Source: a phage. Taken from it: 50,979 bases of DNA. Positions within the stretch are counted from its first letter, which is position 1. Every line of letters begins with the position of its first letter. The translations under genes were made by a program, and so were the position numbers. The notes below the pieces were generated by a model. The model searched no databases. It worked only from the letters and a program-made list of their open reading frames with translations, and was not told the origin of the DNA. Shown here one piece after another: positions 1,570-44,344 of the stretch. Location: sequence record PZ445502.1; one strand, given 5' to 3'.

Positions 1570-1585
1570 CACTAATTGCTAAAAA
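1565..1585 (+). promoter_or_regulatory. variant copy of the conserved intergenic motif (AATAGCACTAATTGCTAAAAA), followed by TATATAAT and a hairpin
   Basis: overlaps the terL stop TAG; 4 mismatches to the consensus; -10-like box only ~8 nt downstream, so it does not fit the usual spacing. Confidence 0.4.
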
Positions 1586-1596
1586 GTTATATAATC

Positions 1597-1624
1597 AAGG
1601 CTGGATTTTTCCAGCCTTTTTTAT
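1597..1624 (+). terminator. rho-independent terminator-like hairpin between terL and portal
   Basis: AAGGCTGG-attttt-CCAGCCTT followed by a T-run. Confidence 0.5.
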
Positions 1625-1639
1625 TATGGAGATTTGACG

Positions 1640-2932
1640 ATGAGCGAAAAAACAAGGCTAGTTAAGGCCGATGGATACAACGAGATTTTCAAGGGTAGTA
1701 AGGGCAATGGGCGTGTAGAGTTGCCTTTCTTTATGCAGGGGTTCGAATACACCACGCACGCTGATTTTTACATTCGCGACGGCCTAGCAAAACGAATCAT
1801 CGACGTTGTTCCAGAAGAAATGGTGACGCCTGGATTTAATATTGATGGCGTGGAAGATGAGGAAAGTTTTAGATCTTTGTGGGATGAGAAGCGACTAAAC
1901 GATAAAATCATTGATGCGCTTTGCTGGTCGCGTCTTTTTGGTGGCGCTGCAATCGTGGCAATCGTCCAGGATGGCAGGGCGTTAAAGTCACCTGTAGCGC
2001 CCGGTGCAATCCTTGAAGATGTTCGCGTTTACGATCGCTTTCAGGTTCGCGTAGAAAAGCGCGAAACTAATCCACGCAAGGTGCGATATGGCGAGCCGTT
2101 AATTTACACCATTTCACCTGGTGCGGACTTGCCAGAATATCAGGTTCACTATTCGCGAGTCTGTATTATCGACGGTGAGCGGCTACCAAATCAGCGACGT
2201 CAATCAAATGATGGGTGGGGTGAATCGATCCTGAATAAGCGACTAGTTGAGGCCATTTGTGATTATAACTACTGCGAAAACTTAGCAACTCAATTGTTGC
2301 GACGTAAGCAACAGGCGGTATGGAAAGCTAAAGGTCTTGCTGATCTTTGTGATGATGATGATGGTGTTAACGCTGCACGTTTGCGCCTTGCTCAAGTTGA
2401 TGATGAGGGTGGCGTAGGCCGCGCGATCGGCATTGATGCGGAAGATGAGGAATATGATGTTTTAAATTCTGATATTTCCGGCGTCGATTCATTCCTGGAA
2501 AAGAAGATGGATCGCATTGTATCTCTTTCCGGCATCCATGAAATCATCCTCAAAAACAAGAACGTTGGCGGTGTTAGCGCGAGCCAAAACACGGCGCTTG
2601 AAACCTTCTACAAGCTGATCGATCGAAAGCGAAAGGAAGAATACAAACCAATCCTTGAATTTCTGATCCCGTTCCTGATTCAAGAGGAAGAATGGAGTAT
2701 TCAGTTTGCGCCGTTAAGCGTTCCCAGCGAAAAGGACCAGGCCGAGATCTTGAACAAGAATATTGATTCTTTGAGCAAGGCTATTGACGGTCAATTCATG
2801 GATGCAGATGAGGCACGCGACACATTGCGAGCCATTGCGCCTAACGTTAAACTAAAAGACGGCAATAACATTAAATTACCTGAGCAGGACGTAGAGCCGG
2901 AGCCAGGAACAACCGAGGGTAACGATCAATGA
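1640..2932 (+). CDS. portal protein
   Basis: 430 aa immediately after terL; GGAG 9 nt upstream of ATG 1640 (track begins at TTG 1634); acidic C-terminus. Confidence 0.75.
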   Translation: MSEKTRLVKADGYNEIFKGSKGNGRVELPFFMQGFEYTTHADFYIRDGLAKRIIDVVPEEMVTPGFNIDGVEDEESFRSLWDEKRLNDKIIDALCWSRLFGGAAIVAIVQDGRALKSPVAPGAILEDVRVYDRFQVRVEKRETNPRKVRYGEPLIYTISPGADLPEYQVHYSRVCIIDGERLPNQRRQSNDGWGESILNKRLVEAICDYNYCENLATQLLRRKQQAVWKAKGLADLCDDDDGVNAARLRLAQVDDEGGVGRAIGIDAEDEEYDVLNSDISGVDSFLEKKMDRIVSLSGIHEIILKNKNVGGVSASQNTALETFYKLIDRKRKEEYKPILEFLIPFLIQEEEWSIQFAPLSVPSEKDQAEILNKNIDSLSKAIDGQFMDADEARDTLRAIAPNVKLKDGNNIKLPEQDVEPEPGTTEGNDQ

Positions 2933-15814: not shown

Positions 15815-15845
15815 AAAAATACCCGCCTTGCGCGGGTTTTTTTGT
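15813..15845 (+). terminator. rho-independent terminator
   Basis: ACCCGCCTTGCGCGGGT hairpin followed by a T-run. Confidence 0.55.
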
Positions 15846-15892
15846 GCATTTATAATGTGCAAACCAAGAAACAGCACAAAAGGTTAAAAGTC

Positions 15893-18800
15893 ATGGCTAA
15901 ATATATGATAAGCGGCAGTAAGGGCGGAAGCAAAAAGCCATACGTGCCAAAAGAGATGGAAGATAACCTGATCTCGATAAACAAGATTAAAGTTTTGCTG
16001 GCTGTATCTGATGGCGAGTGCGATCCAGATTTCACGTTGCGCGATCTTTATCTTGATGATGTTCCGGTTATTGCCAGCGATGGCACTGTTAACTACGAGG
16101 GAGTTACGGCTGAATATCGACCGGGTACGCAGACGCAAGATTACATCCAGGGTTTTACTGACACATCAAGTGAGGTGACAGTTGCAAGAGATATTACCGG
16201 AGACAATCCTTATGTTATTTCTGTTACAAATAAAAATCTATCTGCGGTAAGAATAAAGATCCTGATGCCAGTAGGCATAAAACAGGAGGATAACGGCGAT
16301 CTTGTTGGCGTAAGGGTTGAGTATGCCGTAGATATGGCTATTGATGGCGGTTCTTATAGCGAGGTTATGAGAGATGTAATTGACGGCAAGACAAGATCAG
16401 GATACGACCGCAGCAGAAGGATTGATCTTCCTAAGTTTGATGAGCGCGTTTTAATCCGAGTAAAGCGACTGACTCCAGACAGCACATCTTCAAAGGTAAC
16501 TGATAAAATCAAGCTGCAAAGTTACGCTGAGGTTGTTGATGCAAAATTCCGTTATCCTCTGACTGGCCTTGTATTCGTAGAATTTGACAGTGAATTGTTT
16601 CCTACGCAAATCCCTAACATTTCTATAAAAAAGAAATGGAAGATTATTAATGTGCCAAGCAACTATGATCCAATATCAAGAGAATATCACGGGTCATGGG
16701 ATGGGACTTTTAAAAAAGCGTGGTCAAATAATCCCGCTTGGGTTCTTTATGATCTGGTGACAAATCAGCGTTATGGACTTGATCAGCGAGAGTTAGGAAT
16801 ACAGATCGACAAGTGGAGCTTATACGAGGCGGGCGTTTACTGTGATCAGAAAGTTCCAGACGGTAAGGGCGGTACTGAGCCTCGCTACCTATGCGATGTG
16901 GTGATTCAGAATCAAGTTGAGGCTTATCAGCTAATCCGTGACATTTGCTCAATCTTTCGCGGAATGAGTTTTTGGAATGGTGAGAGCTTATCAATCGTGA
17001 TTGATAAGCCACGCGATCCATCATACGTGTTTACTAATGAAAACGTCATCAACGGTGATTTTCAGTACACAACCGCAAGCGAAAAAAGCATGTACACGCA
17101 GTGTAACGTGACGTTTGACGACGAACAAAACATGTATCAGCAGGACGTAGAGGGTGTTTTTGATACTGAGGCGGCATTACGATTTGGATACAATCCAACA
17201 AGCATTACAGCGATCGGGTGCACACGCAGGAGCGAAGCGAATCGTCGCGGTCGGTGGGTTTTGAAAACAAACCTTAGAAGCACTACTGTAAACTTTGCTA
17301 CCGGACTAGAGGGGATGATTCCATCAATAGGTGATGTTATTGCTATCGCTGATAATTTTCAGAGTAGCAACCTAACGTTAAACCTATCGGGCCGAGTAAT
17401 GGAAGTTTCAGGATTGCAGGTTTTCGTTCCGTTTAAGGTTGATGCTCGCCCTGGTGATTTTATTATCATCAACAAGCCGGACGGCAAGCCAGTTAAGCGC
17501 ACGATCTCAAAGGTTAGCGCAGACGGAAAAACCATAGAGTTAAATATTGGATTTGGTTTTGATGTTAAGCCTGATACTGTTTTTGCGATTGACCGTACTG
17601 ATCTTGCGTTGCAGCAATACGTTGTGACAACTATCAGCAAGGGTGATGACGAAAACGAGTTTACCTATTCAATCACGGCTGTGGAGTACGATCCGAACAA
17701 ATACGACGAGATTGATTATGGCGTAAACATTGATGACAGGCCGACTTCAATTGTTCAGCCTGACGTGATGGCAGCGCCTGAGAACGTTAAGATCTCATCT
17801 TATTCTCGCGTCGTGCAGGGCGTTAGCGTTGAGACTATGGTTGTTTCATGGGATAAGGTTCCTTACGCATCGCTTTATGAAATGCAGTGGCGAAAAGGTG
17901 ATGGTAACTGGCTGAATACGCCGCAGACCGCTAACAAAGAGATAGAGGTAGAAGGGATTTATTCAGGCAACTACCAAGTAAGGGTGAGATCCGTTTCTGC
18001 AAGCGGTAACGCTTCCCCGTGGTCAAAGATTGCAACCGCCACTCTGACAGGTAAAGTTGGCGAGCCAGGAGCGCCGATTAATCTTACGGCTTCTGATAAT
18101 GAAGTTTTTGGCATTCGTGTCAAATGGGGTATGCCGGAAGGATCAGGCGATACGGCTTACATTGAGCTTCACCAATCGCCAGACGGAACGGTTGAAAACT
18201 CAAGTCTGCTTACGCTGATTCCATATCCTCAATATGAGTATTGGCATAGCACGTTACCAGCGGGGCAAGTTGTATGGTATAGAATCCGCAGCGTTGACAG
18301 AATAGGCAACGTTTCCAGTTGGACTGACTTTGTTCGCGGTATGGCGTCAGATGATGTTGAATCTGTTTTGGGCGACATTCTGGACAAGATTTTTGATACA
18401 GAAGCTGGTCAAGAAATCAAAGAGAACGCCATAGACAGCGCCAATAAAATCAAAGACCAGGCACAATCAATCATACAGAACGCGTTGGCAAATGATGCAG
18501 ATGTGAAGTGGACGCGAGTGCAAAACGGAAAGCGCAAGGCTGAATATGGTCATGCTCTTGAGCTTATCGCCAATGAAACAGAAGCGCGCGTAACTCAAAT
18601 CGAAGAGTTAAGGGCATCAATTGATGGCGAGATAACATCAAGCATCAAGACAGTGCAGGAGGCAATTGCCACTGAATCAGAGACGCGAGCGACTCAAATT
18701 CAGCAGCTTGATTCTAAATTCACAAAAGAAATCGACGGCGTGCGCAAGGATACTTCTGCAAGCATTAGCGATGTAAGGCAGACAATCACTAACGAGTCAG

Positions 18801-19471
18801 AAGCGCGCGCTCAGGCCGTTCAGCAGCTTGACGCTAAGTTCACGAAAGAGATAAACGACCTTGACGGAGTTATCAAAACAGAAGTCGAGGCTAACATCTC
18901 AGAAGTGAAACAGGCGATCGCCAATGAGACAGAGGCAAGGGTTCAGGCTGACCAGGCATTAACAGCACGATTTGGCGACGTTGAATCTGCATTGGTTGAA
19001 AAGTTGGATTCTTGGGCGAGCGTTGATTCAGTTGGCGCTAAATACGCTATGAAGCTTGGCCTTACTTACAAAGGCCAGCAATACAGCGCAGGAATGGTGA
19101 TGCAGCTTTCGCAGGGTTCATCCGGCCTTATCTCGCAAATTTTGTTTGATGCTAACAGGTTCGCCATTATGACTAGCTCTACTGGAGGGACTTTTACTTT
19201 GCCTTTCGTGGTTGAGAATAATCAGGTTTTCATTAATAGTCTTTTGGTTAAGAACGGTTCAATCACTAATGCGATGATTGGTAATGTGATTCAGTCAAAC
19301 AACTTTGTTCAAAACCAGCAAGGATGGAGGCTTGATAAAAACGGAATCTTTGAGAATTACGGATCAACGCCAGGAGAAGGAGCTACTAAATTCACCAATG
19401 AGGGATTGAAGGTAAAAGATGCAAACGGAGTATTGAGGGTTGAAGTCGGAAGGATTACCGGAAGCTGGTAA
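15893..19471 (+). CDS. central tail fibre / host specificity protein (lambda gpJ-like)
   Basis: about 1192 aa from ATG 15893 (track begins at TTG 15842); fibronectin-III-like segments; four ~33-aa repeats near the C-terminus; last gene of the tail module. Confidence 0.8.
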   Translation: MAKYMISGSKGGSKKPYVPKEMEDNLISINKIKVLLAVSDGECDPDFTLRDLYLDDVPVIASDGTVNYEGVTAEYRPGTQTQDYIQGFTDTSSEVTVARDITGDNPYVISVTNKNLSAVRIKILMPVGIKQEDNGDLVGVRVEYAVDMAIDGGSYSEVMRDVIDGKTRSGYDRSRRIDLPKFDERVLIRVKRLTPDSTSSKVTDKIKLQSYAEVVDAKFRYPLTGLVFVEFDSELFPTQIPNISIKKKWKIINVPSNYDPISREYHGSWDGTFKKAWSNNPAWVLYDLVTNQRYGLDQRELGIQIDKWSLYEAGVYCDQKVPDGKGGTEPRYLCDVVIQNQVEAYQLIRDICSIFRGMSFWNGESLSIVIDKPRDPSYVFTNENVINGDFQYTTASEKSMYTQCNVTFDDEQNMYQQDVEGVFDTEAALRFGYNPTSITAIGCTRRSEANRRGRWVLKTNLRSTTVNFATGLEGMIPSIGDVIAIADNFQSSNLTLNLSGRVMEVSGLQVFVPFKVDARPGDFIIINKPDGKPVKRTISKVSADGKTIELNIGFGFDVKPDTVFAIDRTDLALQQYVVTTISKGDDENEFTYSITAVEYDPNKYDEIDYGVNIDDRPTSIVQPDVMAAPENVKISSYSRVVQGVSVETMVVSWDKVPYASLYEMQWRKGDGNWLNTPQTANKEIEVEGIYSGNYQVRVRSVSASGNASPWSKIATATLTGKVGEPGAPINLTASDNEVFGIRVKWGMPEGSGDTAYIELHQSPDGTVENSSLLTLIPYPQYEYWHSTLPAGQVVWYRIRSVDRIGNVSSWTDFVRGMASDDVESVLGDILDKIFDTEAGQEIKENAIDSANKIKDQAQSIIQNALANDADVKWTRVQNGKRKAEYGHALELIANETEARVTQIEELRASIDGEITSSIKTVQEAIATESETRATQIQQLDSKFTKEIDGVRKDTSASISDVRQTITNESEARAQAVQQLDAKFTKEINDLDGVIKTEVEANISEVKQAIANETEARVQADQALTARFGDVESALVEKLDSWASVDSVGAKYAMKLGLTYKGQQYSAGMVMQLSQGSSGLISQILFDANRFAIMTSSTGGTFTLPFVVENNQVFINSLLVKNGSITNAMIGNVIQSNNFVQNQQGWRLDKNGIFENYGSTPGEGATKFTNEGLKVKDANGVLRVEVGRITGSW

Positions 19472-19500
19472 AAAAAGGGGGCATAGCCCCCTTTAATTTT
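19470..19500. terminator. bidirectional rho-independent terminator between convergent genes
   Basis: AAAAAAA-GGGGGCATAGCCCCC-TTTAATTTT. Confidence 0.65.
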
Positions 19501-20113
19501 AATCATAGTGTGATGCATTTATAACCAAAACAGATGAAGCGGTGTAAATACCAACAGGTCCAGGAGTTTGTGCAACCTGCCTAGAAAAAGAGTAGATCCC
19601 GTTACCATACGCGGCAGCTTGAGACTCAAAAATCATGAATCCACCTAAAGCCGGATTAGGAACAGAGTTTAATGCTGTCAGTGATGGCATTATGGCGCAA
19701 GGATAGCCCATGTTAACATCAAATGCGATCCCGCTTACTCCTACTTGCTTTGCATCTAGCGGCCTCATTTTTCCATGATAAACCATTTCACCATGAGCAT
19801 TATAAAACGCTATGCCGTGACTACCTGGGGGAGTCACCATATTACTAAAAGCATAAACAATAACCTCACCCTGATTATCAGATCTATCAAGTCTTATTGC
19901 GTGCCTTCCACCATTGTTAAATTGCGTGAATGATATGTATGATTTAGCGGTCAATCTAACAAAGAAAAAACATACCCTATCAACAGGAATTGACGAAGTA
20001 AAAACGGTTCCGGTATTAGCAGATATTACGGCCCGATCAATTAGATTAACTGGAGTGAAATCTGGACTTAACCATAACGATCCGTCTGATTTTTTTATAC
20101 TCATCCCGTACAT
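19499..20113 (-). CDS. hypothetical protein (candidate receptor-binding accessory protein)
   Basis: 204 aa from ATG with GGGGGTGA SD (track begins at TTG 20125); sits between the gpJ-like gene and the lipoprotein gene. Confidence 0.45.
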   Translation of the reverse strand: MYGMSIKKSDGSLWLSPDFTPVNLIDRAVISANTGTVFTSSIPVDRVCFFFVRLTAKSYISFTQFNNGGRHAIRLDRSDNQGEVIVYAFSNMVTPPGSHGIAFYNAHGEMVYHGKMRPLDAKQVGVSGIAFDVNMGYPCAIMPSLTALNSVPNPALGGFMIFESQAAAYGNGIYSFSRQVAQTPGPVGIYTASSVLVINASHYD

Positions 20114-20115
20114 TA

Positions 20116-20394
20116 TCACCCCCAAAAAGTATATATATATCTTGAATCAGATCCAGAAAGCCCACTCCATGTAACGGTGTCGCCACTCACCCCTAAGTTT
20201 GGTGCGCCAGGGTCGCCACCACGCCAGGAATTCATGCCAACATATATTGCTTTCAATGATTTACCTGGCGGCCTGTTTTGGTAAGTCTTGCTACCTGATG
20301 GCTGAGTGAATTTATCAAGGAAGAAAACAGGCGTTAAAAGTCCTGTAACTTCCCTTCCTCGATCGTCATATATTGCATAACCATATTGCGCCAT
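20116..20394 (-). CDS. hypothetical protein
   Basis: 92 aa; GAGGTG SD; in operon with the lipoprotein gene. Confidence 0.45.
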   Translation of the reverse strand: MAQYGYAIYDDRGREVTGLLTPVFFLDKFTQPSGSKTYQNRPPGKSLKAIYVGMNSWRGGDPGAPNLGVSGDTVTWSGLSGSDSRYIYTFWG

Positions 20395-20663
20395 TAATTA
20401 CACCTCAAATCAATAAATTTACTTTCATTTTGCCAACGGTTGATAAATTTAACTTCTTTATTGTCAACGCTCAACCTGTATTGCTTTTGGCTGAATCTGT
20501 TTTCGCGGACTGCATTAATTTTGACTTCATGGAATCCGTTAACAGGGAATGTTTTAACGTTAAATTTTGCCGTGCAATCGATCTCCTTGAAGTTGCCAGT
20601 AGGCGACGCTGCGCATCCTGTCAGAGCGGCTACAGTGGCGATAACTGCGATTAACTTTTTCAT
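20394..20663 (-). CDS. small outer-membrane lipoprotein, Cor/Llp-like superinfection exclusion candidate
   Basis: 89 aa; signal peptide with lipobox LTGC; AAGGAG SD; next to the tail fibre region. Confidence 0.55.
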   Translation of the reverse strand: MKKLIAVIATVAALTGCAASPTGNFKEIDCTAKFNVKTFPVNGFHEVKINAVRENRFSQKQYRLSVDNKEVKFINRWQNESKFIDLRCN

Positions 20664-23449: not shown

Positions 23450-23480
23450 AAAATGCCCCGCATATGCGGGGCATTTTTTA
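23450..23480. terminator. bidirectional rho-independent terminator
   Basis: AAAA-TGCCCCGCATATGCGGGGCA-TTTTTT between convergent ssb and fibre genes. Confidence 0.65.
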
Positions 23481-24215
23481 GTCTAACGTGGTTGGTTTGT
23501 TTACCAGTGCCGCTACAACCGCTTTTAGCTCGTCAATTTCTTTTCTCATCTCATCGTTTTCCGCTTTCAGTTTCTTAACGTGGTGAATCAGTGGAACAGT
23601 TAGGCGGTCATACATAACGCCTTCCGCCACCATGCCATTACTTGAAGCAATGGCAGGATCTTCTCCTTCTTGCAGCGGTCGCCAGTGAACGTACTCCGGA
23701 GCAATTTCTCCAACCTCTTCCGCGATTAGCCCGTACCATCCCCAATCTTTACGGTCGCTTTCACAAGTTGACCGATACCACACAGGACGCATTTCAAGCA
23801 TCAGATCCGCATATTCATCAATAACCGATTCTACGCTGCGCTTATAACGAGAAGAGGAAGTTGAGCGTAAAACTTGCGACACTCCAGCATTTGGATCAAG
23901 CCATAAGTTTGCTGATTGAGCGGTTGTGTTAATATTAAATAAATAAAATGCATCGTTACCAGTTAGGGGGTAAAAACTCCCACTATACCTTCCGCTACCC
24001 AACTCGGATGATAGATCAGTTTGTTTTAGATACGGTTTCAACTTATTGTCAACATCAGCAGTTGATGCTTTTCCTGCAACATCCTGTTTTAGTGTCGAAA
24101 CATCACTTTTCAGCTTCGTTATATCACCAGGAATAGTAGCAACATCCTGTTTTATCGTAGAAACATCATTTTTCAGCTTCGTTATATCACTAGGTATAAC
24201 AGTGACTGTAGCCAT
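23478..24215 (-). CDS. short tail fibre with C-terminal intramolecular chaperone (peptidase S74-like) domain
   Basis: 245 aa; two tandem 21-aa repeats at the N-terminus from a ~63-bp DNA repeat; C-terminal region resembling the self-cleaving fibre chaperone domain. Confidence 0.55.
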   Translation of the reverse strand: MATVTVIPSDITKLKNDVSTIKQDVATIPGDITKLKSDVSTLKQDVAGKASTADVDNKLKPYLKQTDLSSELGSGRYSGSFYPLTGNDAFYLFNINTTAQSANLWLDPNAGVSQVLRSTSSSRYKRSVESVIDEYADLMLEMRPVWYRSTCESDRKDWGWYGLIAEEVGEIAPEYVHWRPLQEGEDPAIASSNGMVAEGVMYDRLTVPLIHHVKKLKAENDEMRKEIDELKAVVAALVNKPTTLD

Positions 24216-24227
24216 TTTCCTAACTCC

Positions 24228-24506
24228 TTAAGCCCATTCTCTAATCGGCTGATCTAACTCAACCACGTAGCCGTTAAAAATTACGGCATCAAACTTATCA
24301 TCAATGATTCGCACATTGACGAAATAGCCGTCGTTCTTTCGCGCAATCTCATCGCCATCGTCAGATCGTGCAATTACTGTGTAAGTATTGCCGATTACAT
24401 CGAGCAGGATTGCATCCTGAATGGATTCGTTTTCGTTCCATTCAATTTCTTCCAGAAAGGCGGAAAAATCCGCCTTGTCTAAAAATTTCAGTGTTAAATC
24501 ACGCAT
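24228..24506 (-). CDS. hypothetical protein (possible fibre assembly factor)
   Basis: 92 aa from ATG 24506, TAATG overlap with the stop of the upstream fibre gene. Confidence 0.4.
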   Translation of the reverse strand: MRDLTLKFLDKADFSAFLEEIEWNENESIQDAILLDVIGNTYTVIARSDDGDEIARKNDGYFVNVRIIDDKFDAVIFNGYVVELDQPIREWA

Positions 24507-26482
24507 TATACAATTTCCCCCAATTGATGATCTGTTAGTGCCTTGTGCCATATACGGAAGTTTCTAACGTGCCCGAAAAGATGGCGTTCGCCCGTAGTTG
24601 TTTGTCCGCCAATCCTTATAGTAGCCGTTGATTCTATGTATCTCCATTCCGTTTTTGTTTCGCTTGATATTCTGGCATTACTTACACAGCAATTATTGTA
24701 ATCACTCTTTACTCTCATTCCCATGATCATCTTTTTTAGTTTTGCATTCTCGTAAACCCTTCTGTTTGATCCACCTATATCGCAATAAGGGAATCCATCA
24801 TTATCGCCCTCGGCAGATCCGAAAGCAAGAATAATTGCCGCACCAGATTGATGACCTACAGTATCAAAAACACGAGGCGCAGCATTTGGCGTTATACTCC
24901 AGTTTTTATTAGCTTCCACAAGAACTGTAAACGGCAAATTGTAAAGGTTGTTTTTTATTGGCACTGAAACCATATCGCTTGCCCTTGTTACTGGATTTTC
25001 TTCTGTAATTATGAAAGAAGAGGCACAAGATCCTCCCTCAACTTGTGGAGTTGCAATATAAATGTAATCATCCGCGCCAGTGCCCACTCCTTTTGCCGGG
25101 GCATACTGAACCATTCCACCTATCATATTTTCTGTATCAAGTGCCTTAATTGTCGCCTCAAAAAAGATCCATTTGCTTGCTTCATCTTTAACAGCCCTTG
25201 CAGTAATACGATTTGCAGCGACGCCAGTTTTTTCAATTGATAAATCTGTCAGATTTACGTAAGCATCACCCAAAAATGCATAAGCAGATCCATCGTAGTT
25301 TTCAAATCGTAATCGGCATCTTAAATTTGGAGTCCCACTTTGCGCCCTGCATGATATGGTTACATACTTTTCATTTCCTGTTACATCAAAACCTCTACTG
25401 CCGGAAACGGTTACTATGTTAATCGCTGAAGTTTGCCCTACCATTTCTGGTTTTAATGTAAATTTTGCGTACTGGAATCCGAAATTATCCACACCTGATC
25501 TAGCTAAGATCATATTTGATGACTTGTTCCATTTTGAAGGATTGACGCTATTTATAAGAAGGTTTGTTCTTTGCCCCTCAATGAGCAGACCATCCTTTTC
25601 AAATCTAGGTTCATCAATAGCAGCATTAGTAAGCACCCCAGACTTATTAATGTAAGTAGCGGTTGATGCGCGTTTAAACTTAACAATCTTGTCACCTGGC
25701 ATCGTGATCTCATCGTCACCTATAACAATCTTTTTATATGACGGAGAGAATCCGGTGATCATATCCAGGGAATCATTAAACGGTATCCACACGTCCGGCA
25801 ACGGTTGCAATAAATCTTTGTAAGGTTCTGCGGCCTGCTTTGCGTATTCCTCCGCTTGATCTCGCGCACTTTCAGCTCCTGCCTTTGCAGTGTTCGCAGC
25901 GTCACGCGCGGATTCAGCGCCTTTTCTTGCAGTTTCAGCGCCAGTCTTTGCAGTGTTTGCAGCGTCGCGCGCGGATTCAGCGGCAGCCTTTGCAGTGTCA
26001 GCACCTTTCTTGCTATTCTCTGCATTTGTTGCGCTTGTCTTTGCGTTATTCTCGCTAGTTTTAGCTGCCTTCTGGCTTGCTGCGGCTGCGTCAGCATTTG
26101 TCTTTACGTCTTCCTGGATCTTCTGTAGCTTATCCCAATCAAAATCCTTGATGATCTCAATAAATCCAGCAAACTCCGATTCCTTCCCCTGGTAATAACG
26201 CAACGTTTCCGCTACGTCTTGCGCAAGACCGTCAACCGTTAACGAGTCATGAAGCAAGATCAGGTAATTTGTCTTCTGTACTACCGCGCCGCCAGTAGTA
26301 ATTGCGCGAATGCTTGTATCGCTAATCACTTCTGTAATCACAGCAGCTTGCAAAGGTTGAGAAAGAAAGAAAATAGTTGCACCTGGGCGAATCAAGGTTA
26401 ATTGCTCACGCCATTTTGTACCGTAACCAGTTACATATCCTTGCGCGTCCATAGACGCTTGGCCTTGTCTGTAAATCGCCAT
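24506..26482 (-). CDS. long tail fibre protein with Ala-rich repeat region
   Basis: 658 aa from ATG 26482 with AGGAGG SD (track begins at 26506); N-terminal region with repeated AKxxAExARDAANTAK units; beta-rich C-terminal part. Confidence 0.55.
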   Translation of the reverse strand: MAIYRQGQASMDAQGYVTGYGTKWREQLTLIRPGATIFFLSQPLQAAVITEVISDTSIRAITTGGAVVQKTNYLILLHDSLTVDGLAQDVAETLRYYQGKESEFAGFIEIIKDFDWDKLQKIQEDVKTNADAAAASQKAAKTSENNAKTSATNAENSKKGADTAKAAAESARDAANTAKTGAETARKGAESARDAANTAKAGAESARDQAEEYAKQAAEPYKDLLQPLPDVWIPFNDSLDMITGFSPSYKKIVIGDDEITMPGDKIVKFKRASTATYINKSGVLTNAAIDEPRFEKDGLLIEGQRTNLLINSVNPSKWNKSSNMILARSGVDNFGFQYAKFTLKPEMVGQTSAINIVTVSGSRGFDVTGNEKYVTISCRAQSGTPNLRCRLRFENYDGSAYAFLGDAYVNLTDLSIEKTGVAANRITARAVKDEASKWIFFEATIKALDTENMIGGMVQYAPAKGVGTGADDYIYIATPQVEGGSCASSFIITEENPVTRASDMVSVPIKNNLYNLPFTVLVEANKNWSITPNAAPRVFDTVGHQSGAAIILAFGSAEGDNDGFPYCDIGGSNRRVYENAKLKKMIMGMRVKSDYNNCCVSNARISSETKTEWRYIESTATIRIGGQTTTGERHLFGHVRNFRIWHKALTDHQLGEIV

Positions 26483-26497
26483 TTGTAAAATCCTCCT

Positions 26498-26516
26498 AAA
26501 TAGCACTTTTTGCTAA
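26498..26516 (+). promoter_or_regulatory. conserved motif, directly upstream (opposite orientation) of the SD of the long fibre gene
   Basis: plus strand AATAGCACTTTTTGCTAA; minus strand reads TTAGCAAAAAGTGCTAT then TTAGGAGG then ATG. Confidence 0.45.
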
Positions 26517-33442: not shown

Positions 33443-33658
33443 ATGAAAGATTTTATTAACGCAGCTACCGCCGGATCTGGCGGTTCATCTATCGCAAGCG
33501 CCGCTACAGGGCAGTTAACCATTGCTATTGCCAGTTTTGTTTTAATGGCTGCATTCGGTGCGTGGGGCGCTTACCTTCGCTGGCGTGATAGTAAAAAATT
33601 CCACGAGGCGATCGAAAAAGGTGATATTCAAAAAGCTATTGAGATCAGGGGCAAGTAA
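33443..33658 (+). CDS. holin
   Basis: 71 aa; single hydrophobic helix; charged C-terminus; directly upstream of the endolysin. Confidence 0.55.
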
Positions 33659-34149
33659 TGAGCATAAAGAACAGGGTAGCGGCGGCGGCCTTTGGCGTTG
33701 CGGTTGCCTTGACTTCTCCACTTCTTGAAGAGATCGAAGGGGTAAGATACAAGCCATACAAAGATATTGCGGGAGTATGGACGGTTTGCGCAGGAATCAC
33801 CGGACCCGATGTTATCCTGGGGAAAACGTACACTAAAAAAGAGTGTGATGCTTTGTTGGCTAAGCATATCCAGGTTGCTAAAAAGGAAGTTGACAAGCAA
33901 GTTAAGGTTTACATTCCTGATAGTATGCGTGCAGCAATGTACTCATTCACTTACAATGCAGGTGTGGGAGCTTTCAGAAATTCAACAATGCTGAAACTCA
34001 TCAACCAGGGGAAATTAAACGAGGCTTGCGATCAGCTTTATCGTTGGACTTATTACCATAACCCAAAAACAGGAAAGCGAGAGAAGTCTAAAGGCTTGCT
34101 TAACAGGCGCAAGGTCGAATACAAATATTGCACAATGGATCTTAAATGA
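33658..34149 (+). CDS. SAR endolysin (T4-lysozyme-type muramidase)
   Basis: 163 aa; N-terminal weakly hydrophobic signal-anchor-release segment; catalytic E-D-T spacing in EEIEG...YKD...T. Confidence 0.7.
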
Positions 34150-34541
34150 TGAAGAAATTTTTACTTACACCAATCGCAATGGCGGTGATCTTGTCTGGAT
34201 GTTCAAGCGTTACGCCACTGACCGGATTAATCGGCAGTAAGCCGGAAATCACAGCGCAGGCTGGCGCGGAGAACGTGAAGCAGACAGTTGGCATTACAGC
34301 AAGGCAGGACGCCAGCACAAAACAGGAAACCACAATAAAGGAATCTGCGGTTGACAAGGTGGACACGTCCAGCAAGAAGGATTTCACAACATCAACCATT
34401 CAGGCCAATACCATCAAGGCAGACAAAATTCAGGTCGTGCAGGGTAATAACGGCAGATGGTACGATCCAGTAATCATATGCGTGGTTGTGTTTCTTGTGC
34501 TGATTTGTCTTTACTGGATAGAAAAGAAAAAGGAGGCTTAA
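34146..34541 (+). CDS. unimolecular spanin (lipoprotein with C-terminal transmembrane helix)
   Basis: 131 aa; lipobox LSGC at the N-terminus and C-terminal TM helix, as in the T1 u-spanin. Confidence 0.6.
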
Positions 34542-41754: not shown

Positions 41755-41783
41755 TTGACACGCACCAAATAGCTTTTATAATG
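41755..41783 (+). promoter_or_regulatory. sigma70-like promoter (TTGACA-N16-TATAAT) for the plus-strand early operon
   Basis: consensus hexamers at canonical spacing about 30 nt upstream of ATG 41814. Confidence 0.55.
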
Positions 41784-41813: not shown

Positions 41814-42278
41814 ATGGAACAGAAGACCACTAAGGACTATTGCGATTGGCTTCGCGAGCTTGGTCGCCGCCTGGCTAGTGGCGATATTGAAGAGTATAAA
41901 ATGTCACTAATTGACCTGGCCGGAATGTTAAGCGGTGACGACTGCTACAAGATCACGCGCAGTTCATCCTACAGCCGGACCATTATCAACCGCGTTCCAG
42001 AAGTAAGGGCCGCAGGTCGGGTAAGCATCAAGGTAGAGGAAACGGAAGATGATAAATTTTACGTTTTCCGCATGGTCCGCGAATCGAAAAGGAAAATCAT
42101 CACACCCGAAGAATTGCCAGCCATCAAGGCAAGGGCGATCAAAAAGTTTGCCGATCGCATACTGGCAGCAATCCCGAATATCGTTGACCTGGAAGGGGAT
42201 AAACTGGCTGGGGCTTGCGAGGGCGTAAGCCGCTACCAGGATATGATCCGCGAAATCATCAAAGAGGAAGAGCAATGA
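41814..42278 (+). CDS. hypothetical protein, first early gene
   Basis: 154 aa from ATG 41814 with GGAGG SD. Confidence 0.45.
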   Translation: MEQKTTKDYCDWLRELGRRLASGDIEEYKMSLIDLAGMLSGDDCYKITRSSSYSRTIINRVPEVRAAGRVSIKVEETEDDKFYVFRMVRESKRKIITPEELPAIKARAIKKFADRILAAIPNIVDLEGDKLAGACEGVSRYQDMIREIIKEEEQ

Positions 42279-42547
42279 AAAAGGCATTAATCAGCGTTTT
42301 GGCGGCAATGGCATTCCTGACCGGATGCAAAGAAGATGGCGCGCATGTTGGCAATGTGCAGATGGCTAACCCTGGCGATGACTACAGCGTAAGGGAGCTA
42401 TTCACCGCTGACGGTTGCACCGTTTACCGATTCTATGACGATCGCACTGTTTACTTCACCAACTGCAAGGGCGCTACTAGCTGGGAAGTGTCGAAAAGCA
42501 ATGGCAAAGGCACGAAGACAGAACATATGACCGTCGAGACAAAATAG
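42275..42547 (+). CDS. small lipoprotein (second lipoprotein; Llp/Cor-like candidate)
   Basis: 90 aa; signal peptide with lipobox LTGC; ATGA overlap with the upstream gene. Confidence 0.5.
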   Translation: MKKALISVLAAMAFLTGCKEDGAHVGNVQMANPGDDYSVRELFTADGCTVYRFYDDRTVYFTNCKGATSWEVSKSNGKGTKTEHMTVETK

Positions 42548-42587
42548 CACTTTTTGTTAAAACGCCAGGCGCGAAGCCTGGCATAAT
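42543..42587 (+). promoter_or_regulatory. motif-class promoter (motif, 22 nt, CATAAT)
   Basis: GCCAGGC...GCCTGGC inverted repeat abutting the -10 box. Confidence 0.5.
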
Positions 42588-42619: not shown

Positions 42620-42805
42620 ATGGCACGTCGCATCACCAAAGACCTTAAAGTCCTGAACAAAGAAAACGTAGTTAAAATCCTGGTTATCTGGGGCTACAAC
42701 GAAGAAACAGCAAAGCAGAAGGTAGAGGCAGGTTATGACCTGGCTGTAAAAGCAATGCCAAACGACGACGCCAAAGGCATTGCAAACTATGTAGCGTTCT
42801 TTTAA
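42620..42805 (+). CDS. hypothetical protein
   Basis: 61 aa; GAGGA SD. Confidence 0.4.
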   Translation: MARRITKDLKVLNKENVVKILVIWGYNEETAKQKVEAGYDLAVKAMPNDDAKGIANYVAFF

Positions 42806-42820
42806 TTAGCGGGTGAATAA

Positions 42821-43006
42821 ATGAAAACGAAATTAGTCCATAAATCAGAAATCAAGATCGGCGATACTGTGATTCACAACGGCGAGCTTAGAACGGTTGG
42901 CAAAGAGTCAATAAGCCACGATGAATTTATGGGGATCTTGTTGTTCGGTGACTCTTATCGTCTTGGTTACAAGATGGTTGAGCTTGTGGAAGAGGTAAAA
43001 TTCTAA
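42821..43006 (+). CDS. hypothetical protein
   Basis: 61 aa ORF. Confidence 0.4.
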   Translation: MKTKLVHKSEIKIGDTVIHNGELRTVGKESISHDEFMGILLFGDSYRLGYKMVELVEEVKF

Positions 43007-43050
43007 ATAGCACTTTTTGTTAAAACTCAAAAGCGATAACCAGGCATAAT
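43005..43050 (+). promoter_or_regulatory. motif-class promoter (motif, 22 nt, CATAAT)
   Basis: shares CCAGGCATAAT with the promoters near 42543 and 37653. Confidence 0.5.
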
Positions 43051-43252
43051 ACACACATAGACGGGCGGCAAGGATTGCTGCGGGAGAGGAGTAACGCAGG
43101 GGCTTGATCGAAGTGTCAGGATTCCCAACCGTGAGGCCAGAACTATCACACTCGCCACCAGGCAGAACGCTAGATAGGTCACTGAGCTGAGGCTACCGAC
43201 GAAGTGAAGCCCGTCACCAAAGATTAAACGGTTATTTATGTTAAAGGGGTTA

Positions 43253-43435
43253 ATGATGGATAAGATCATCAAAATGAGCGAAGTCAAGCCGGGAATGATG
43301 GTTAAGTTTGCTGGCAAATATCGCCTAGTGCTGGATAACTGCCGCAAAGAGAACATTCTTACCATTCGTGTAAATGGCAAGGCGCAGCTATTCGCCCCTA
43401 GCGCAGATATTGACGTTGAAGTTAGAATTAAGTAA
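43253..43435 (+). CDS. hypothetical protein
   Basis: about 60 aa from ATG 43253 with AAGGGG SD. Confidence 0.4.
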   Translation: MMDKIIKMSEVKPGMMVKFAGKYRLVLDNCRKENILTIRVNGKAQLFAPSADIDVEVRIK

Positions 43436-43450
43436 TTAGGAGGAAACACC

Positions 43451-44344
43451 ATGTTAAAACTTGCTGACATTAAATTCCCGATCACCTTCGAATCTCGCGG
43501 AATTGGTCATTACATTTTTACTGATGAAAAAACATGCCATAAGGTTGATTTGCATAGCTACAAGCGTGCGCCATCAAGCATGGAGATTGATCACTTCATT
43601 GATGCGCATAACAAGCACTACAACTCGCTTAAAGACTACGGCTACGCAATGCCAGGATATACCAGCTTCCACTACAAGCCATACAAGGGCCAGGTGTTAC
43701 CAGTTCGCTCACCGGAACGCGCAGAGATTCCGATGGTCAATATGAAAACCTGCGACTACAAAAAGCTGTGGTGCTTAAGTGTGGACAATATCAAGTATCC
43801 GATCACGTTCCACACAACTGGTAACTCAACGATTCGCTTCACATCACGCGACAATGGCGTTTATAGCGATGGTCAGAAATCAGGGTTGAAAGTTGATTTC
43901 TTTGTCAATGCTCACAACGATTTCAATCCGCACAACGAAAAAGATAAAGTGTACTACGTGGAAGACATTACAAAACACTTATTTGGAGAAACTCCATTCG
44001 GCGGCGGTAAGACGTCAATTCAGCAAATCATTGGCGATGAGATCCACAAAGCGGCTGCCGAAATGAAAGCGCCTGGAGGCTGGCGTATTGACAAGAGCGC
44101 CTTTGCAAATCAAGAAATCGTAACGCAGGGCGCAATTGAAGATATGCCAGTTGCAGCCACGCTAAAAGGAGTCCGGCTTGATGATGGTGTGTGGTTTGAA
44201 GTAACGGCTACACCAAAGACGTTCGAGATTCATGATGACGTTGTTATTCTTCTGCTTCACTACGGCGGCGCAAAAAACCGCACCGTTGCAGGTGAGATCA
44301 GCATCAAGCGCGGAACGATGGTTAAGTGGAAGGTCAAAGTGTAA
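43451..44344 (+). CDS. hypothetical early protein with internal tandem duplication
   Basis: 297 aa; segments around residues 5-60 and 110-165 are clear repeats (IKFPITFESRG... versus IKYPITFHTTG...). Confidence 0.5.
   Translation: MLKLADIKFPITFESRGIGHYIFTDEKTCHKVDLHSYKRAPSSMEIDHFIDAHNKHYNSLKDYGYAMPGYTSFHYKPYKGQVLPVRSPERAEIPMVNMKTCDYKKLWCLSVDNIKYPITFHTTGNSTIRFTSRDNGVYSDGQKSGLKVDFFVNAHNDFNPHNEKDKVYYVEDITKHLFGETPFGGGKTSIQQIIGDEIHKAAAEMKAPGGWRIDKSAFANQEIVTQGAIEDMPVAATLKGVRLDDGVWFEVTATPKTFEIHDDVVILLLHYGGAKNRTVAGEISIKRGTMVKWKVKV

What the first reader, a model, noticed from the sequence alone, without database searches (positions are those of the whole stretch)
42275..42547. A second, unrelated small lipoprotein in the early operon
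The 90-aa product (MKKALISVLAAMAFLTGC...) is the second gene after the early sigma70 promoter and is translationally coupled (ATGA) to the first. Its mature part is Cys-containing (two or three Cys) and shows no obvious similarity to the lipoprotein at 20394..20663. Two different lipoproteins expressed at different times could target two different envelope components (receptor and co-receptor, or a host defence or uptake system).
Basis: partly seen in the sequence, partly recalled or inferred. Interest (0 to 1): 0.5.

Follow-up and report, generated by a model that had tools for sequence, protein, structure and literature searches.

The report
Early phage lipoprotein of unknown function
The gene is real and encodes a small exported, lipid-anchored protein of a large, uncharacterised phage family (DUF4884); it probably acts on the host cell envelope early in infection, but nothing links it to the phage's own receptor.

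Summary
Window 42275..42547 (+) encodes a 90-aa protein with a textbook lipoprotein signal peptide (MKK, hydrophobic core, LTGC). It is the second gene behind a perfect TTGACA-16-TATAAT promoter and overlaps gene 1 by ATGA. The window is a T1-like coliphage (Drexlerviridae, Warwickvirus).

The protein belongs to Pfam DUF4884, with about 1,900 clusters at 50% identity. Every genomic context I inspected was a phage or prophage. Function is unknown and I found no literature on it. The predicted layout is signal peptide, a roughly 20-residue tether, then a five-strand beta-meander with a Cys48-Cys64 staple. No structure of known function matches it.

It is unrelated to the other lipoprotein (20394..20663, minus strand), which is the Cor-type exclusion protein of the receptor-binding locus.

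Among near-identical phages the mature domain alone is swapped as a cassette: about 46% identity inside, about 98% in the flanks. In eight genomes this allele co-segregates with no other gene, including the receptor-binding locus, the tail tip, the tape measure and the operon partner.

So the lipoprotein and early-position claims are supported. A receptor or co-receptor mask of the Llp/Cor type is disfavoured. My best guess, at modest confidence, is a stand-alone periplasmic effector on a conserved host envelope component. It is ordinary as a sequence but a reasonable experimental target.

The parts
41755..41782 (+). Sigma-70 promoter, TTGACA-16 nt-TATAAT (12/12 match), drives the two-gene unit
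   Evidence: Identical in 5 of the 7 Warwickvirus genomes compared. Replaced by TTGACA-17-GATAAT at the same place in tiwna and atuna, and by TTGATA-16-TAATAT in Rtp. Function is inferred, not measured.
41814..42278 (+). Gene 1 of the unit: 154-aa DUF7174 protein, no signal peptide, function unknown
   Evidence: Pfam PF23796, E 4e-51; PHROG 4841. The ATG at 41781 lies inside the -10 hexamer, so 41814, with GGAGGA 8 nt upstream, is the likely start. No solved relative. It has its own ~30%-identity alternative allele, which is not linked to the lipoprotein allele.
42275..42547 (+). Gene 2: 90-aa DUF4884 lipoprotein precursor (the finding)
   Evidence: Pfam PF16225: 31.9 bits against a cut-off of 30. 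2,166 homologues; 1,872 clusters at 50% identity.
42275..42328 (+). Signal peptide (aa 1-17: MKK + ALISVLAAMAFL) with lipobox LTGC (42317..42328). Cys18 is the predicted lipidated N-terminus. Lys at +2 implies Lol sorting to the outer membrane.
   Evidence: Sequence. Cys18 is invariant in 122 of 122 sequences. 242 of 254 family members have a strict lipobox and only 9 of 242 have Asp at +2. The signal-peptide DNA is ~98% identical between alleles whose mature parts differ.
42329..42385 (+). Low-confidence, variable tether (aa 19-37) between the lipid anchor and the folded domain
   Evidence: AF2 pLDDT 54-62 here. The family spacing from lipid-Cys to core-Cys is tightly set: median 24 residues, interquartile range 24-25 (5th percentile 23). 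The window protein has 29.
42386..42538 (+). Folded domain (aa 38-88): five-strand antiparallel beta-meander. Carries the invariant core L42 F43 ... G47 C48 T V Y51 R52 F53 . D55 ... Y60 F T N C64 ... G77 K78. Cys48 (42416..42418) and Cys64 (42464..42466) are cross-strand partners of one hairpin.
   Evidence: AF2 with 122 sequences: mean pLDDT 73.8, about 81 over residues 40-90, strands 38-45, 48-54, 58-64, 67-75, 80-88. Invariant columns. The disulfide is inferred from the hairpin register (48+64 = 54+58). 193 of 242 relatives have a second pair, CGKxC, which this allele lacks (SNGKGT).
42579..42587 (+). Extended -10-like element TGGCATAAT just after the stop codon; probable next promoter, bounding the two-gene unit
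   Evidence: Conserved in all 7 Warwickvirus genomes compared, including swan01 where the downstream genes differ. TGGTATAAT sits at the same place in Rtp. Not picked up by the -35/-10 scan. Inference only.

Best explanation
What it is (confidence about 0.9): an accessory gene of a virulent T1-like phage. It is transcribed from a consensus host-type promoter at the head of the small-gene arm and translationally coupled to a DUF7174 gene. The product is exported by Sec, lipidated at Cys18 and sorted by Lol to the inner leaflet of the outer membrane. From there a flexible tether of about 20 residues hangs a 50-residue, disulfide-stapled beta-meander (DUF4884) into the periplasm.

How it most likely works (inferred; the confidence figure below refers to this part): it acts alone, as a periplasmic effector. 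Its invariant hairpin (DGCTVYRF.D...YFTNC) binds a host envelope component that is conserved across Gammaproteobacteria. It does not bind the phage's own terminal receptor or a phage-encoded partner. The most probable consequence is a change in envelope passage early in infection: a receptor-independent block to entry of further phage DNA or other incoming macromolecules, additional to the Cor-type receptor mask that the phage already carries. The variable tether and C-terminal strands, exchanged between phages as a cassette, would tune or disguise the protein without changing the target.
For: Lipoprotein status:
- Canonical n-region, h-region and lipobox.
- Cys18 invariant in 122 of 122 sequences.
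- 242 of 254 relatives have a strict lipobox and Asp at +2 is rare.
- Conserved Cys pairs fit an oxidising compartment.

Early placement:
- Perfect promoter, retained positionally across diverged sequences.
- First transcription unit of the roughly 9-kb arm of small genes that leads to the terminase.
- It occupies the position of T1's leftmost gene, inside the annotated terminal repeat of T1.

Stand-alone action:
- DUF7174 accompanies it only in Drexlerviridae.
- In other phages it sits among unrelated small early or accessory genes. In one case it is next to rIIA/rIIB and a Band_7 membrane protein.
- No domain fusions.

Not tied to receptor or tail:
- Of all window ORFs, only this one separates four allele-A genomes from four allele-B genomes.
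- The Cor-like protein is 95-100% identical in both groups.

Conserved target:
- The core motif is nearly invariant from coliphages to Pseudomonas and Xanthomonas phages and Pseudomonas prophages.
- The tether length is tightly constrained.
- Both alleles occur in phages isolated on the same E. coli K-12 MG1655 host.

Precedent: small early periplasmic phage lipoproteins that jam an outer-membrane machine (T5 Llp on FhuA, PMC9586334).
Against: - No experiment, and no homologue of known function.
- No literature on DUF4884 function.
- The AF2 model is only moderately confident and the disulfide is inferred.
- 'Early' rests on promoter and position only; I found no T1-like transcriptome.
- Exclusion is one of several possible outcomes of binding an envelope target, and nothing here distinguishes them.
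- The linkage test used only 8 genomes.
- T1 lacks the gene in its equivalent 12 kb, so it is dispensable for the T1-like life cycle.
Confidence: 0.35

Rival explanations
1. Llp/Cor-type receptor mask. The lipoprotein binds the periplasmic side of a second outer-membrane receptor or co-receptor used by this phage and closes it, preventing superinfection and loss of progeny on cell debris.
For: It shares the general format of T5 Llp and T1 Cor: a small outer-membrane lipoprotein, Cys-stabilised and made from a strong promoter (PMC9586334; PMC13164509). Divergent alleles in otherwise identical phages are what a specificity determinant would show.
Against: - Not next to any receptor-binding gene; it is 22 kb from the gpJ/RBP/Cor locus.
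- The allele is uncoupled from the RBP, Cor-like, gpJ, lateral-fibre and tape-measure alleles.
- Homologues are present in Drexlerviridae reported to use LptD and in those carrying this window's RBP locus, and in myoviruses and other phages of five further genera.
- The core is far more conserved than known receptor masks, which track their receptor.
- No sequence or fold match to Cor or Llp.
Confidence: 0.12
2. Counter-defence or host-takeover factor. The lipoprotein neutralises a host envelope-located function that would otherwise limit infection, such as an envelope-stress or capsule-inducing sensor, a membrane-associated defence system, or a periplasmic enzyme. Allele turnover would be driven by host systems that recognise it.
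For: It is placed among early accessory genes, which in other phages include anti-restriction functions: Lar-like, queuosine-type DNA modification genes and a Stp-like gene in Rtp. It is accessory rather than core (absent from the T1 left arm). Cassette-like diversification with a fixed core is typical of proteins under recognition pressure.
Against: No match in PADLOC and no known anti-defence family. Context associations are loose and differ from phage to phage. No known defence system has a periplasmic lipoprotein inhibitor that resembles it.
Confidence: 0.25
3. Envelope-stabilising or lysis-timing factor. The domain binds peptidoglycan, LPS or a tethering protein. This holds the envelope together, or prevents lysis from without, until the holin, endolysin and u-spanin act.
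For: The invariant face is rich in aromatic, Arg and Asp residues. There is a weak, sub-threshold resemblance to single beta-propeller blades and to the Lipoprotein_15 repeat. One relative neighbours rIIA/rIIB, which are linked to lysis control in T4. The constrained tether length fits a fixed distance between outer membrane and target.
Against: The gene is far from the lysis cassette (33443..34541), which is complete on its own. The propeller and lectin similarities are not significant: 3-4 bits per repeat, and 16.6 bits against a cut-off of 24.4. There is no peptidoglycan-binding motif of any known family.
Confidence: 0.13
4. Little or no function in this phage: a mobile accessory gene that hitch-hikes through recombination.
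For: Absent from T1's equivalent region. This allele has lost the second Cys pair present in 193 of 242 relatives. Nothing co-varies with it.
Against: The core is invariant across about 1,900 clusters. The lipobox Cys is invariant. The reading frame is intact in 116 of 118 phage records at 80% coverage or more. A strong promoter and translational coupling are retained.
Confidence: 0.05

Closest known systems
Pfam DUF4884 (PF16225) / PHROG 6360; same-family genes in GenBank phages (e.g. rtp3 of phage Rtp, JLBYU26_30, Dolphis gp86)
   Same: Passes the Pfam gathering score (31.9 against 30 bits). It shares the signal peptide with lipobox, the tether, and the LF..DGCTVYRF.D...YFTNC.G...GK core. 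It is 100% identical to the gene in phages tunus, SECphi27, Tuinin and others.
   Different: This allele has a longer tether (29 residues against a median of 24) and lacks the second CGKxC pair. The family has no assigned function, so membership explains nothing mechanistically.
T5 Llp and T1/phi80 Cor superinfection-exclusion lipoproteins
   Same: A small phage-encoded outer-membrane lipoprotein facing the periplasm, stabilised by cysteine(s), made by a virulent siphovirus. Llp jams a TonB-dependent transporter from the periplasmic side (PMC9586334).
   Different: No sequence or fold similarity. Not adjacent to, and not co-varying with, the receptor-binding gene. Far wider host and phage distribution, with a near-invariant core. 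The window already has its own Cor-type protein at 20394..20663 (-).
Spanin lipoproteins (Rz1 o-spanin; T1 gp11-type u-spanin)
   Same: A phage-encoded outer-membrane lipoprotein with a lipobox and a short mature part.
   Different: Not in the lysis cassette. No C-terminal transmembrane segment and no i-spanin partner. Beta-rich rather than extended or Pro-rich. The window's u-spanin is a separate gene at 34146..34541.
Single blades of PQQ-like beta-propellers (designed 'Cake' proteins, PDB 6TJC-6TJI) and the Pfam Lipoprotein_15 repeat
   Same: The pattern DG.(T)(V/I)Y....D....Y.....G.T.W....GK aligns with one propeller blade, and a four-to-five-strand meander is predicted.
   Different: Only 3-4 bits per repeat, and 16.6 bits against a cut-off of 24.4, so not significant. 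There is a single copy, not a repeat. Oligomerisation into a propeller is pure speculation.

Membership tests
Bacterial lipoprotein precursor (Lgt/LspA/Lnt substrate) | Positively charged n-region, a hydrophobic h-region of about 7-22 residues, and a lipobox [LVI][ASTVI][GAS]C ending within roughly the first 15-35 residues | tested here: met
   MKK, then ALISVLAAMAFL, then L-T-G-C18. A whole-window regex scan found this pattern in only two real genes, and the u-spanin was found by hand.
Bacterial lipoprotein precursor (Lgt/LspA/Lnt substrate) | The lipobox cysteine is conserved among homologues | tested here: met
   Cys18 is invariant in 19 of 19 and 122 of 122 aligned sequences. 242 of 254 have a strict lipobox and the rest a near-lipobox.
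Bacterial lipoprotein precursor (Lgt/LspA/Lnt substrate) | Actual diacylglyceryl modification and signal peptidase II cleavage; outer-membrane localisation | not testable with these tools
   Only the +2 rule can be read: Lys at +2, and Asp in 9 of 242 relatives. This predicts outer-membrane sorting in Enterobacteria.
Pfam DUF4884 (PF16225) | Whole-protein score at or above the curated gathering threshold of 30 bits | tested here: met
   31.9 bits, E 1.1e-7, residues 35-64. All but one of the 139 relatives listed in the two protein searches carry a precomputed PF16225 hit; the exception is P0003, an 84-aa sequence I treated as a frameshifted variant.
Llp/Cor-type receptor-masking exclusion lipoproteins | Sequence or fold relationship to Cor (PHROG 1119) or Llp (PDB 8A60) | tested here: not met
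Llp/Cor-type receptor-masking exclusion lipoproteins | Encoded next to the cognate receptor-binding protein gene and co-varying with it | tested here: not met
   The gene is 22 kb from the gpJ/RBP/Cor locus. RBP-locus proteins are 85-100% identical in genomes of both DUF4884 alleles.
Llp/Cor-type receptor-masking exclusion lipoproteins | Expression confers resistance to phages using one specific receptor | not testable with these tools
   Needs plating and adsorption assays.
Spanins (o-spanin or u-spanin) | Located in the lysis cassette; i-spanin partner or C-terminal transmembrane segment | tested here: not met
   The lysis genes are at about 33443..34541, with the u-spanin at 34146..34541. 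The DUF4884 protein has no hydrophobic segment after the signal peptide.
Beta-propeller blade / Lipoprotein_15 (PF03640) repeat | Score above the family threshold; repeated blades | tested here: not met
   16.6 bits against a cut-off of 24.4. Matches to designed propellers are 3-4 bits per repeat and reach significance only by summing over 3-10 repeats of the target. The protein has a single copy.
Early (pre-replicative) phage gene | Transcribed by unmodified host RNA polymerase immediately after DNA entry | tested here: inconclusive
   Consensus promoter, positional conservation, and position equivalent to T1's leftmost genes within its terminal repeat. No transcript data found.

The most novel reading that the evidence does not exclude
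DUF4884 is a previously unrecognised, very widespread class of phage periplasmic effector. Tethered to the outer membrane at a fixed distance, its invariant hairpin would plug or hijack a universally conserved envelope machine, for example the TonB, Lol, Bam or Lpt pathway. That would give receptor-independent, broad-spectrum exclusion or host takeover, mechanistically distinct from the Llp/Cor receptor masks. The freely exchanged variable shell would be selected to escape host recognition.
Probability: 0.15. Interest if true: 0.7.

Novelty: new member of a known kind. Interest (0 to 1): 0.35.

Why it matters
Phage-encoded envelope lipoproteins with known roles are few: Llp, Cor, the spanins and Bor. 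Each has been informative about how the outer membrane is crossed or blocked.

DUF4884 is a large family, with about 1,900 clusters at 50% identity. It is carried by unrelated phages of many Gammaproteobacteria and has a near-invariant core, yet no function is assigned. If it targets a conserved envelope machine, it would be a new tool and a new exclusion or takeover mechanism.

For this window specifically, the result is modest. The gene is identical to ones already deposited, some already labelled DUF4884. The main new points are negative or descriptive: it is not linked to the receptor-binding locus, it is exchanged as a mature-domain cassette, and its tether length is constrained.

Tried and rejected
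- The first AF2 run, with 19 sequences, was too weak to use (pLDDT 58).
- The PDB sequence search with the family profile hit only designed 'Cake' propellers, through summed repeats. I rejected this as evidence of homology.
- NCBIfam hits (entericidin, EexN, LptM and others) cover only the signal peptide and fall far below their cut-offs.
- PADLOC gave nothing.
- Literature searches for DUF4884, DUF7174, PF16225, SECphi27 plus lipoprotein, early Drexlerviridae transcription, and recent phage outer-membrane lipoproteins gave no functional information.
- There are no copies on plasmids or in 5,426 complete E. coli genomes, so I dropped the prophage-moron and plasmid entry-exclusion readings for the coliphage alleles.
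- DUF7174 as an obligatory partner is rejected. It is absent next to homologues outside Drexlerviridae, and its alleles assort independently.
- Domain fusions as functional hints are rejected. All the long 'fusions' keep an internal signal peptide and are mis-called starts.
- The spanin reading is rejected, because a separate u-spanin is present.

Full report
**Observation.** Window 42275..42547 (+) is an intact ORF of 90 codons. It encodes MKKALISVLAAMAFLTGCKEDGAHVGNVQMANPGDDYSVRELFTADGCTVYRFYDDRTVYFTNCKGATSWEVSKSNGKGTKTEHMTVETK.
- Its ATG overlaps the TGA of the preceding ORF (ATGA at 42275-42278), and a GAGGAAG stretch precedes it.
- The preceding ORF most likely starts at 41814, with GGAGGA 8 nt upstream, because the earlier in-frame ATG at 41781 lies inside the -10 hexamer.
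- At 41755..41782 there is a 12-of-12 match to TTGACA-16-TATAAT. It is the only perfect match in a 5-kb scan that otherwise found fewer promoter-like sites than shuffled sequence gives.
- The N-terminus is a canonical lipoprotein signal: MKK, a 12-residue hydrophobic core, and the lipobox L-T-G-C18.
- The mature part has two more cysteines, C48 and C64.

Three corrections apply. The lipoprotein at 20394..20663 is on the minus strand. The window holds a third lipoprotein, the u-spanin at 34146..34541. Different expression times for the two lipoproteins are assumed, not shown.

**Where the window comes from.** The region is 99.8% identical to Escherichia phages tunus, ExeQuayColi and MartyMcPhage, and 97-99% identical to many other members of Drexlerviridae, Tempevirinae, Warwickvirus. 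These are virulent T1-like siphoviruses of E. coli. Annotated relatives show the gene order. The DUF7174/lipoprotein pair opens a rightward arm of about 9 kb containing some 30 small genes. That arm runs into the small and large terminase genes, and the window starts at the large terminase. This is the position of the leftmost genes of T1, which lie inside T1's annotated 2.8-kb terminal repeat. 'Early' is thus a reasonable inference from promoter and position, but I found no transcript data for any T1-like phage.

The promoter is conserved in position even where the surrounding sequence is not. Examples are TTGACA-17-GATAAT in tiwna and atuna, and TTGATA-16-TAATAT in Rtp. Immediately after the lipoprotein stop codon an extended -10-like TGGCATAAT (42579..42587) is conserved in all seven Warwickviruses compared, and appears as TGGTATAAT in Rtp. 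The two genes therefore look like a discrete unit between two promoters.

**Family.** The protein passes the gathering threshold of Pfam DUF4884 (31.9 against 30 bits). Its best PHROG hits are 6360 and 902, both of unknown function. Several GenBank records already label the orthologue 'DUF4884 domain-containing protein'.
- A word-indexed search with a 19-sequence profile found 2,166 relatives.
- An exhaustive profile search found 1,872 clusters at 50% identity, 832 of them at E<=1e-10.
- In 122 aligned sequences the invariant positions are the lipobox Cys18, L42, F43, C48, Y51, R52, F53, D55, Y60, C64 and G77. G47, T49, V50, T62, G66 and K78 are near-invariant.
- Among 254 retrieved members with the core motif, 242 have a strict lipobox and the rest a near-lipobox.
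- Asp at +2, the Lol-avoidance signal, occurs in only 9 of 242.
- The spacing from lipid-Cys to core-Cys has a median of 24 residues and an interquartile range of 24-25 (5th percentile 23). The window protein has 29.
- 193 members have four mature cysteines, with a second CGKxC pair. 37 members, including this one, have two.

**Structure.** With 122 sequences AlphaFold2 gives a mean pLDDT of 73.8, and about 81 over residues 40-90. The model has three parts.
- A signal-peptide helix.
- A low-confidence tether (19-37).
- A five-strand antiparallel meander (38-45, 48-54, 58-64, 67-75, 80-88).

In the 48-54/58-64 hairpin, residues 48 and 64 are cross-strand partners, which fits a disulfide staple. 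This is an inference. No solved or predicted structure of known function matches.
- Foldseek against the PDB found nothing at E<=0.001.
- BFVD returned only other unknown phage lipoproteins.

A sub-threshold likeness to single propeller blades is noted but not relied on.

**Distribution and context.** Every context I examined is a phage or prophage.
- Drexlerviridae of two subfamilies: Warwickvirus, and Rtp and JeanPiccard in Braunvirinae.
- Serratia myoviruses, and Pantoea, Erwinia, Pseudomonas and Xanthomonas phages.
- Large metagenomic phage contigs.
- The one Pseudomonas chromosomal locus I examined sits among methyltransferase, excisionase-like and other phage-type genes.

There are no copies on plasmids or in 5,426 complete E. 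coli genomes. T1 has none in its equivalent left 12 kb. The gene is therefore accessory.

The neighbours are small early or accessory genes that differ from phage to phage. DUF7174 accompanies the gene only in Drexlerviridae. One relative lies next to rIIA/rIIB and a Band_7 protein. Apparent long 'fusions' all retain an internal signal peptide and are mis-called starts. There is thus no conserved partner gene and no informative fusion.

**The other lipoprotein.** The 89-aa product of 20394..20663 (-) matches PHROG 1119, 'Cor superinfection exclusion protein' (E 8e-8). It lies with PHROG 557 and PHROG 425 proteins directly downstream of the gpJ homologue. This is the locus that the BASEL study identifies as the receptor-binding-protein locus with its cognate exclusion protein (PMC8594841), and that a 2026 study describes as the Cor cassette (PMC13164509). 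It shows no alignment to the DUF4884 protein. 'Second, unrelated lipoprotein' is correct.

**Cassette behaviour and linkage.** tblastn against 50,697 phage records gives a bimodal result: 43 records at 90% identity or more and 75 below 60%. Yet the flanks of several low-identity records are 97-98% identical to the window.

Aligned with JLBYU26, the divergence begins at the codon after the lipobox Cys and ends at the stop codon. The signal peptide and both flanks are about 98% identical. A third allele class, at about 56-58% identity, also exists.

To ask what the allele tracks, I ran tblastn of every window ORF against seven full Warwickvirus genomes. Three carry allele A, like the window, and four carry allele B.
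- Only the DUF4884 ORF separates the two groups: 94-98% against 43-55%.
- The RBP-locus proteins (85-100%), gpJ (88-99%), the tape measure (97-99%) and the lateral fibre do not.
- DUF7174 has its own ~30%-identity alternative allele in two of the four B genomes only.
- The Cor-like protein is 95-100% identical in phages of either allele.
- Phages of both alleles were isolated on the same host, E. coli K-12 MG1655.

The sample is small, but it excludes a perfectly linked partner among the phage's own genes.

**Interpretation.** What is shown or nearly shown is an accessory, promoter-proximal gene for an exported, lipid-anchored, cysteine-stabilised small beta-domain. By the +2 rule it is sorted to the outer membrane. 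It belongs to a very large phage-borne family with a near-invariant core and a constrained tether.

What is inferred is that it acts alone on a conserved host envelope component. The reasons are that it has no conserved partner, no linkage to receptor or tail genes, a core conserved across hosts from E. coli to Xanthomonas, and a fixed reach from the membrane.

The consequence I consider most likely is a receptor-independent change in envelope passage early in infection. That means exclusion of further incoming DNA or other macromolecules, in addition to the Cor-type mask. The precedent is small periplasmic phage lipoproteins that jam outer-membrane machines (PMC9586334). My confidence in this functional reading is about 0.35.

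The rivals are:
- counter-defence or stress-response modulation (0.25);
- envelope stabilisation or lysis timing (0.13);
- no significant function (0.05).

**Novelty and value.** The sequence is already in GenBank many times and its family is catalogued, so this is a new member of a known, uncharacterised kind. It is not surprising to a specialist that a T1-like phage carries such a gene.

The points that add value are the size and phage-borne contexts of the family, the conserved tether, the exact mature-domain cassette exchange, and the lack of linkage to the receptor-binding locus. Together they make DUF4884 a sensible target for the experiments listed under next steps. Interest is 0.35. 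The most novel reading not excluded, a new broad class of periplasmic effector on a universal envelope machine, has a probability of about 0.15 and would deserve about 0.7.

Noticed in passing
window 34146..34541 (+): A third lipoprotein in the window: the unimolecular spanin. It has the lipobox ILSGC ([19 protein letters not shown]...) and a C-terminal transmembrane segment ([21 protein letters not shown]). It lies after the holin and endolysin genes and is annotated 'Rz-like spanin' in relatives.
   Followed up: partly
window 19499..20663 (-): A Cor-type cassette directly downstream of gpJ (15842..19471). It comprises a 208-aa PHROG 425 protein, a 92-aa PHROG 557 protein and the 89-aa Cor-like lipoprotein (PHROG 1119, E 8e-8). 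It is 85-100% conserved across the seven Warwickviruses compared. Tonijn and JLBYU26 carry a slightly different version (85-94%).
   Followed up: partly
window 42554..42587 (+): Just after the lipoprotein stop codon there is TTGTTA, a hairpin GCCAGGC-GCGAA-GCCTGGC (42564..42582) and an extended -10-like TGGCATAAT. TTGTTAAAAC and GGCATAAT are conserved in all relatives. The hairpin is not conserved in swan01 and MatMar. Rtp has TGGTATAAT at the same place. This is probably the next promoter, and no T-rich terminator follows.
   Followed up: partly
window 41814..42278 (+); L027 47720..48184; L030 41682..42146: The operon partner DUF7174 has a ~30%-identity alternative allele in phages tiwna and atuna. 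The upstream region there is also diverged, but a near-consensus promoter is kept at the same position. This dimorphism is not linked to the lipoprotein allele.
   Followed up: partly
window 23478..26506 (-): The lateral tail fibre block (666-aa, 107-aa and 245-aa ORFs) is shared only with swan01 among the seven genomes compared. This is an independent mosaic module, as expected for O-antigen-binding fibres.
   Followed up: no
window 43027..43485: This segment, with a 65-aa ORF at 43238..43435 (+), is present in swan01 and ExeQuayColi-type genomes but absent from the other six genomes compared. Swan01 in turn lacks the two 61-aa genes at 42620..43006. The arm downstream of the lipoprotein is a patchwork of small insertions and deletions.
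   Followed up: no
GenBank MG065649, MG065680, MG065685 (hits H80-H82): Records named 'Campylobacter phage A143/A113/A112a' carry a DUF4884 relative (37% identity). 'Campylobacter' records also appear among the Cor-like protein hits. They look like Drexlerviridae-type sequences and may be mislabelled or contaminants.
   Followed up: no
L034 (phage T1, 1..12000): T1 has no DUF4884 homologue in its left 12 kb (profile search at E<=10). Its first gene, ST77, is a 191-aa protein in the position of DUF7174. T1's record marks 1..2800 as a terminal repeat, which suggests that the equivalent first operon of Warwickviruses lies in the terminal redundancy.
   Followed up: partly
L022 1..5223 (246-kb metagenomic phage contig): Here a DUF4884 gene follows rIIA-like, rIIB, Band_7 (SPFH) and a pilin-like N_methyl protein. 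This is a cluster of membrane-associated proteins and could be a functional hint.
   Followed up: no
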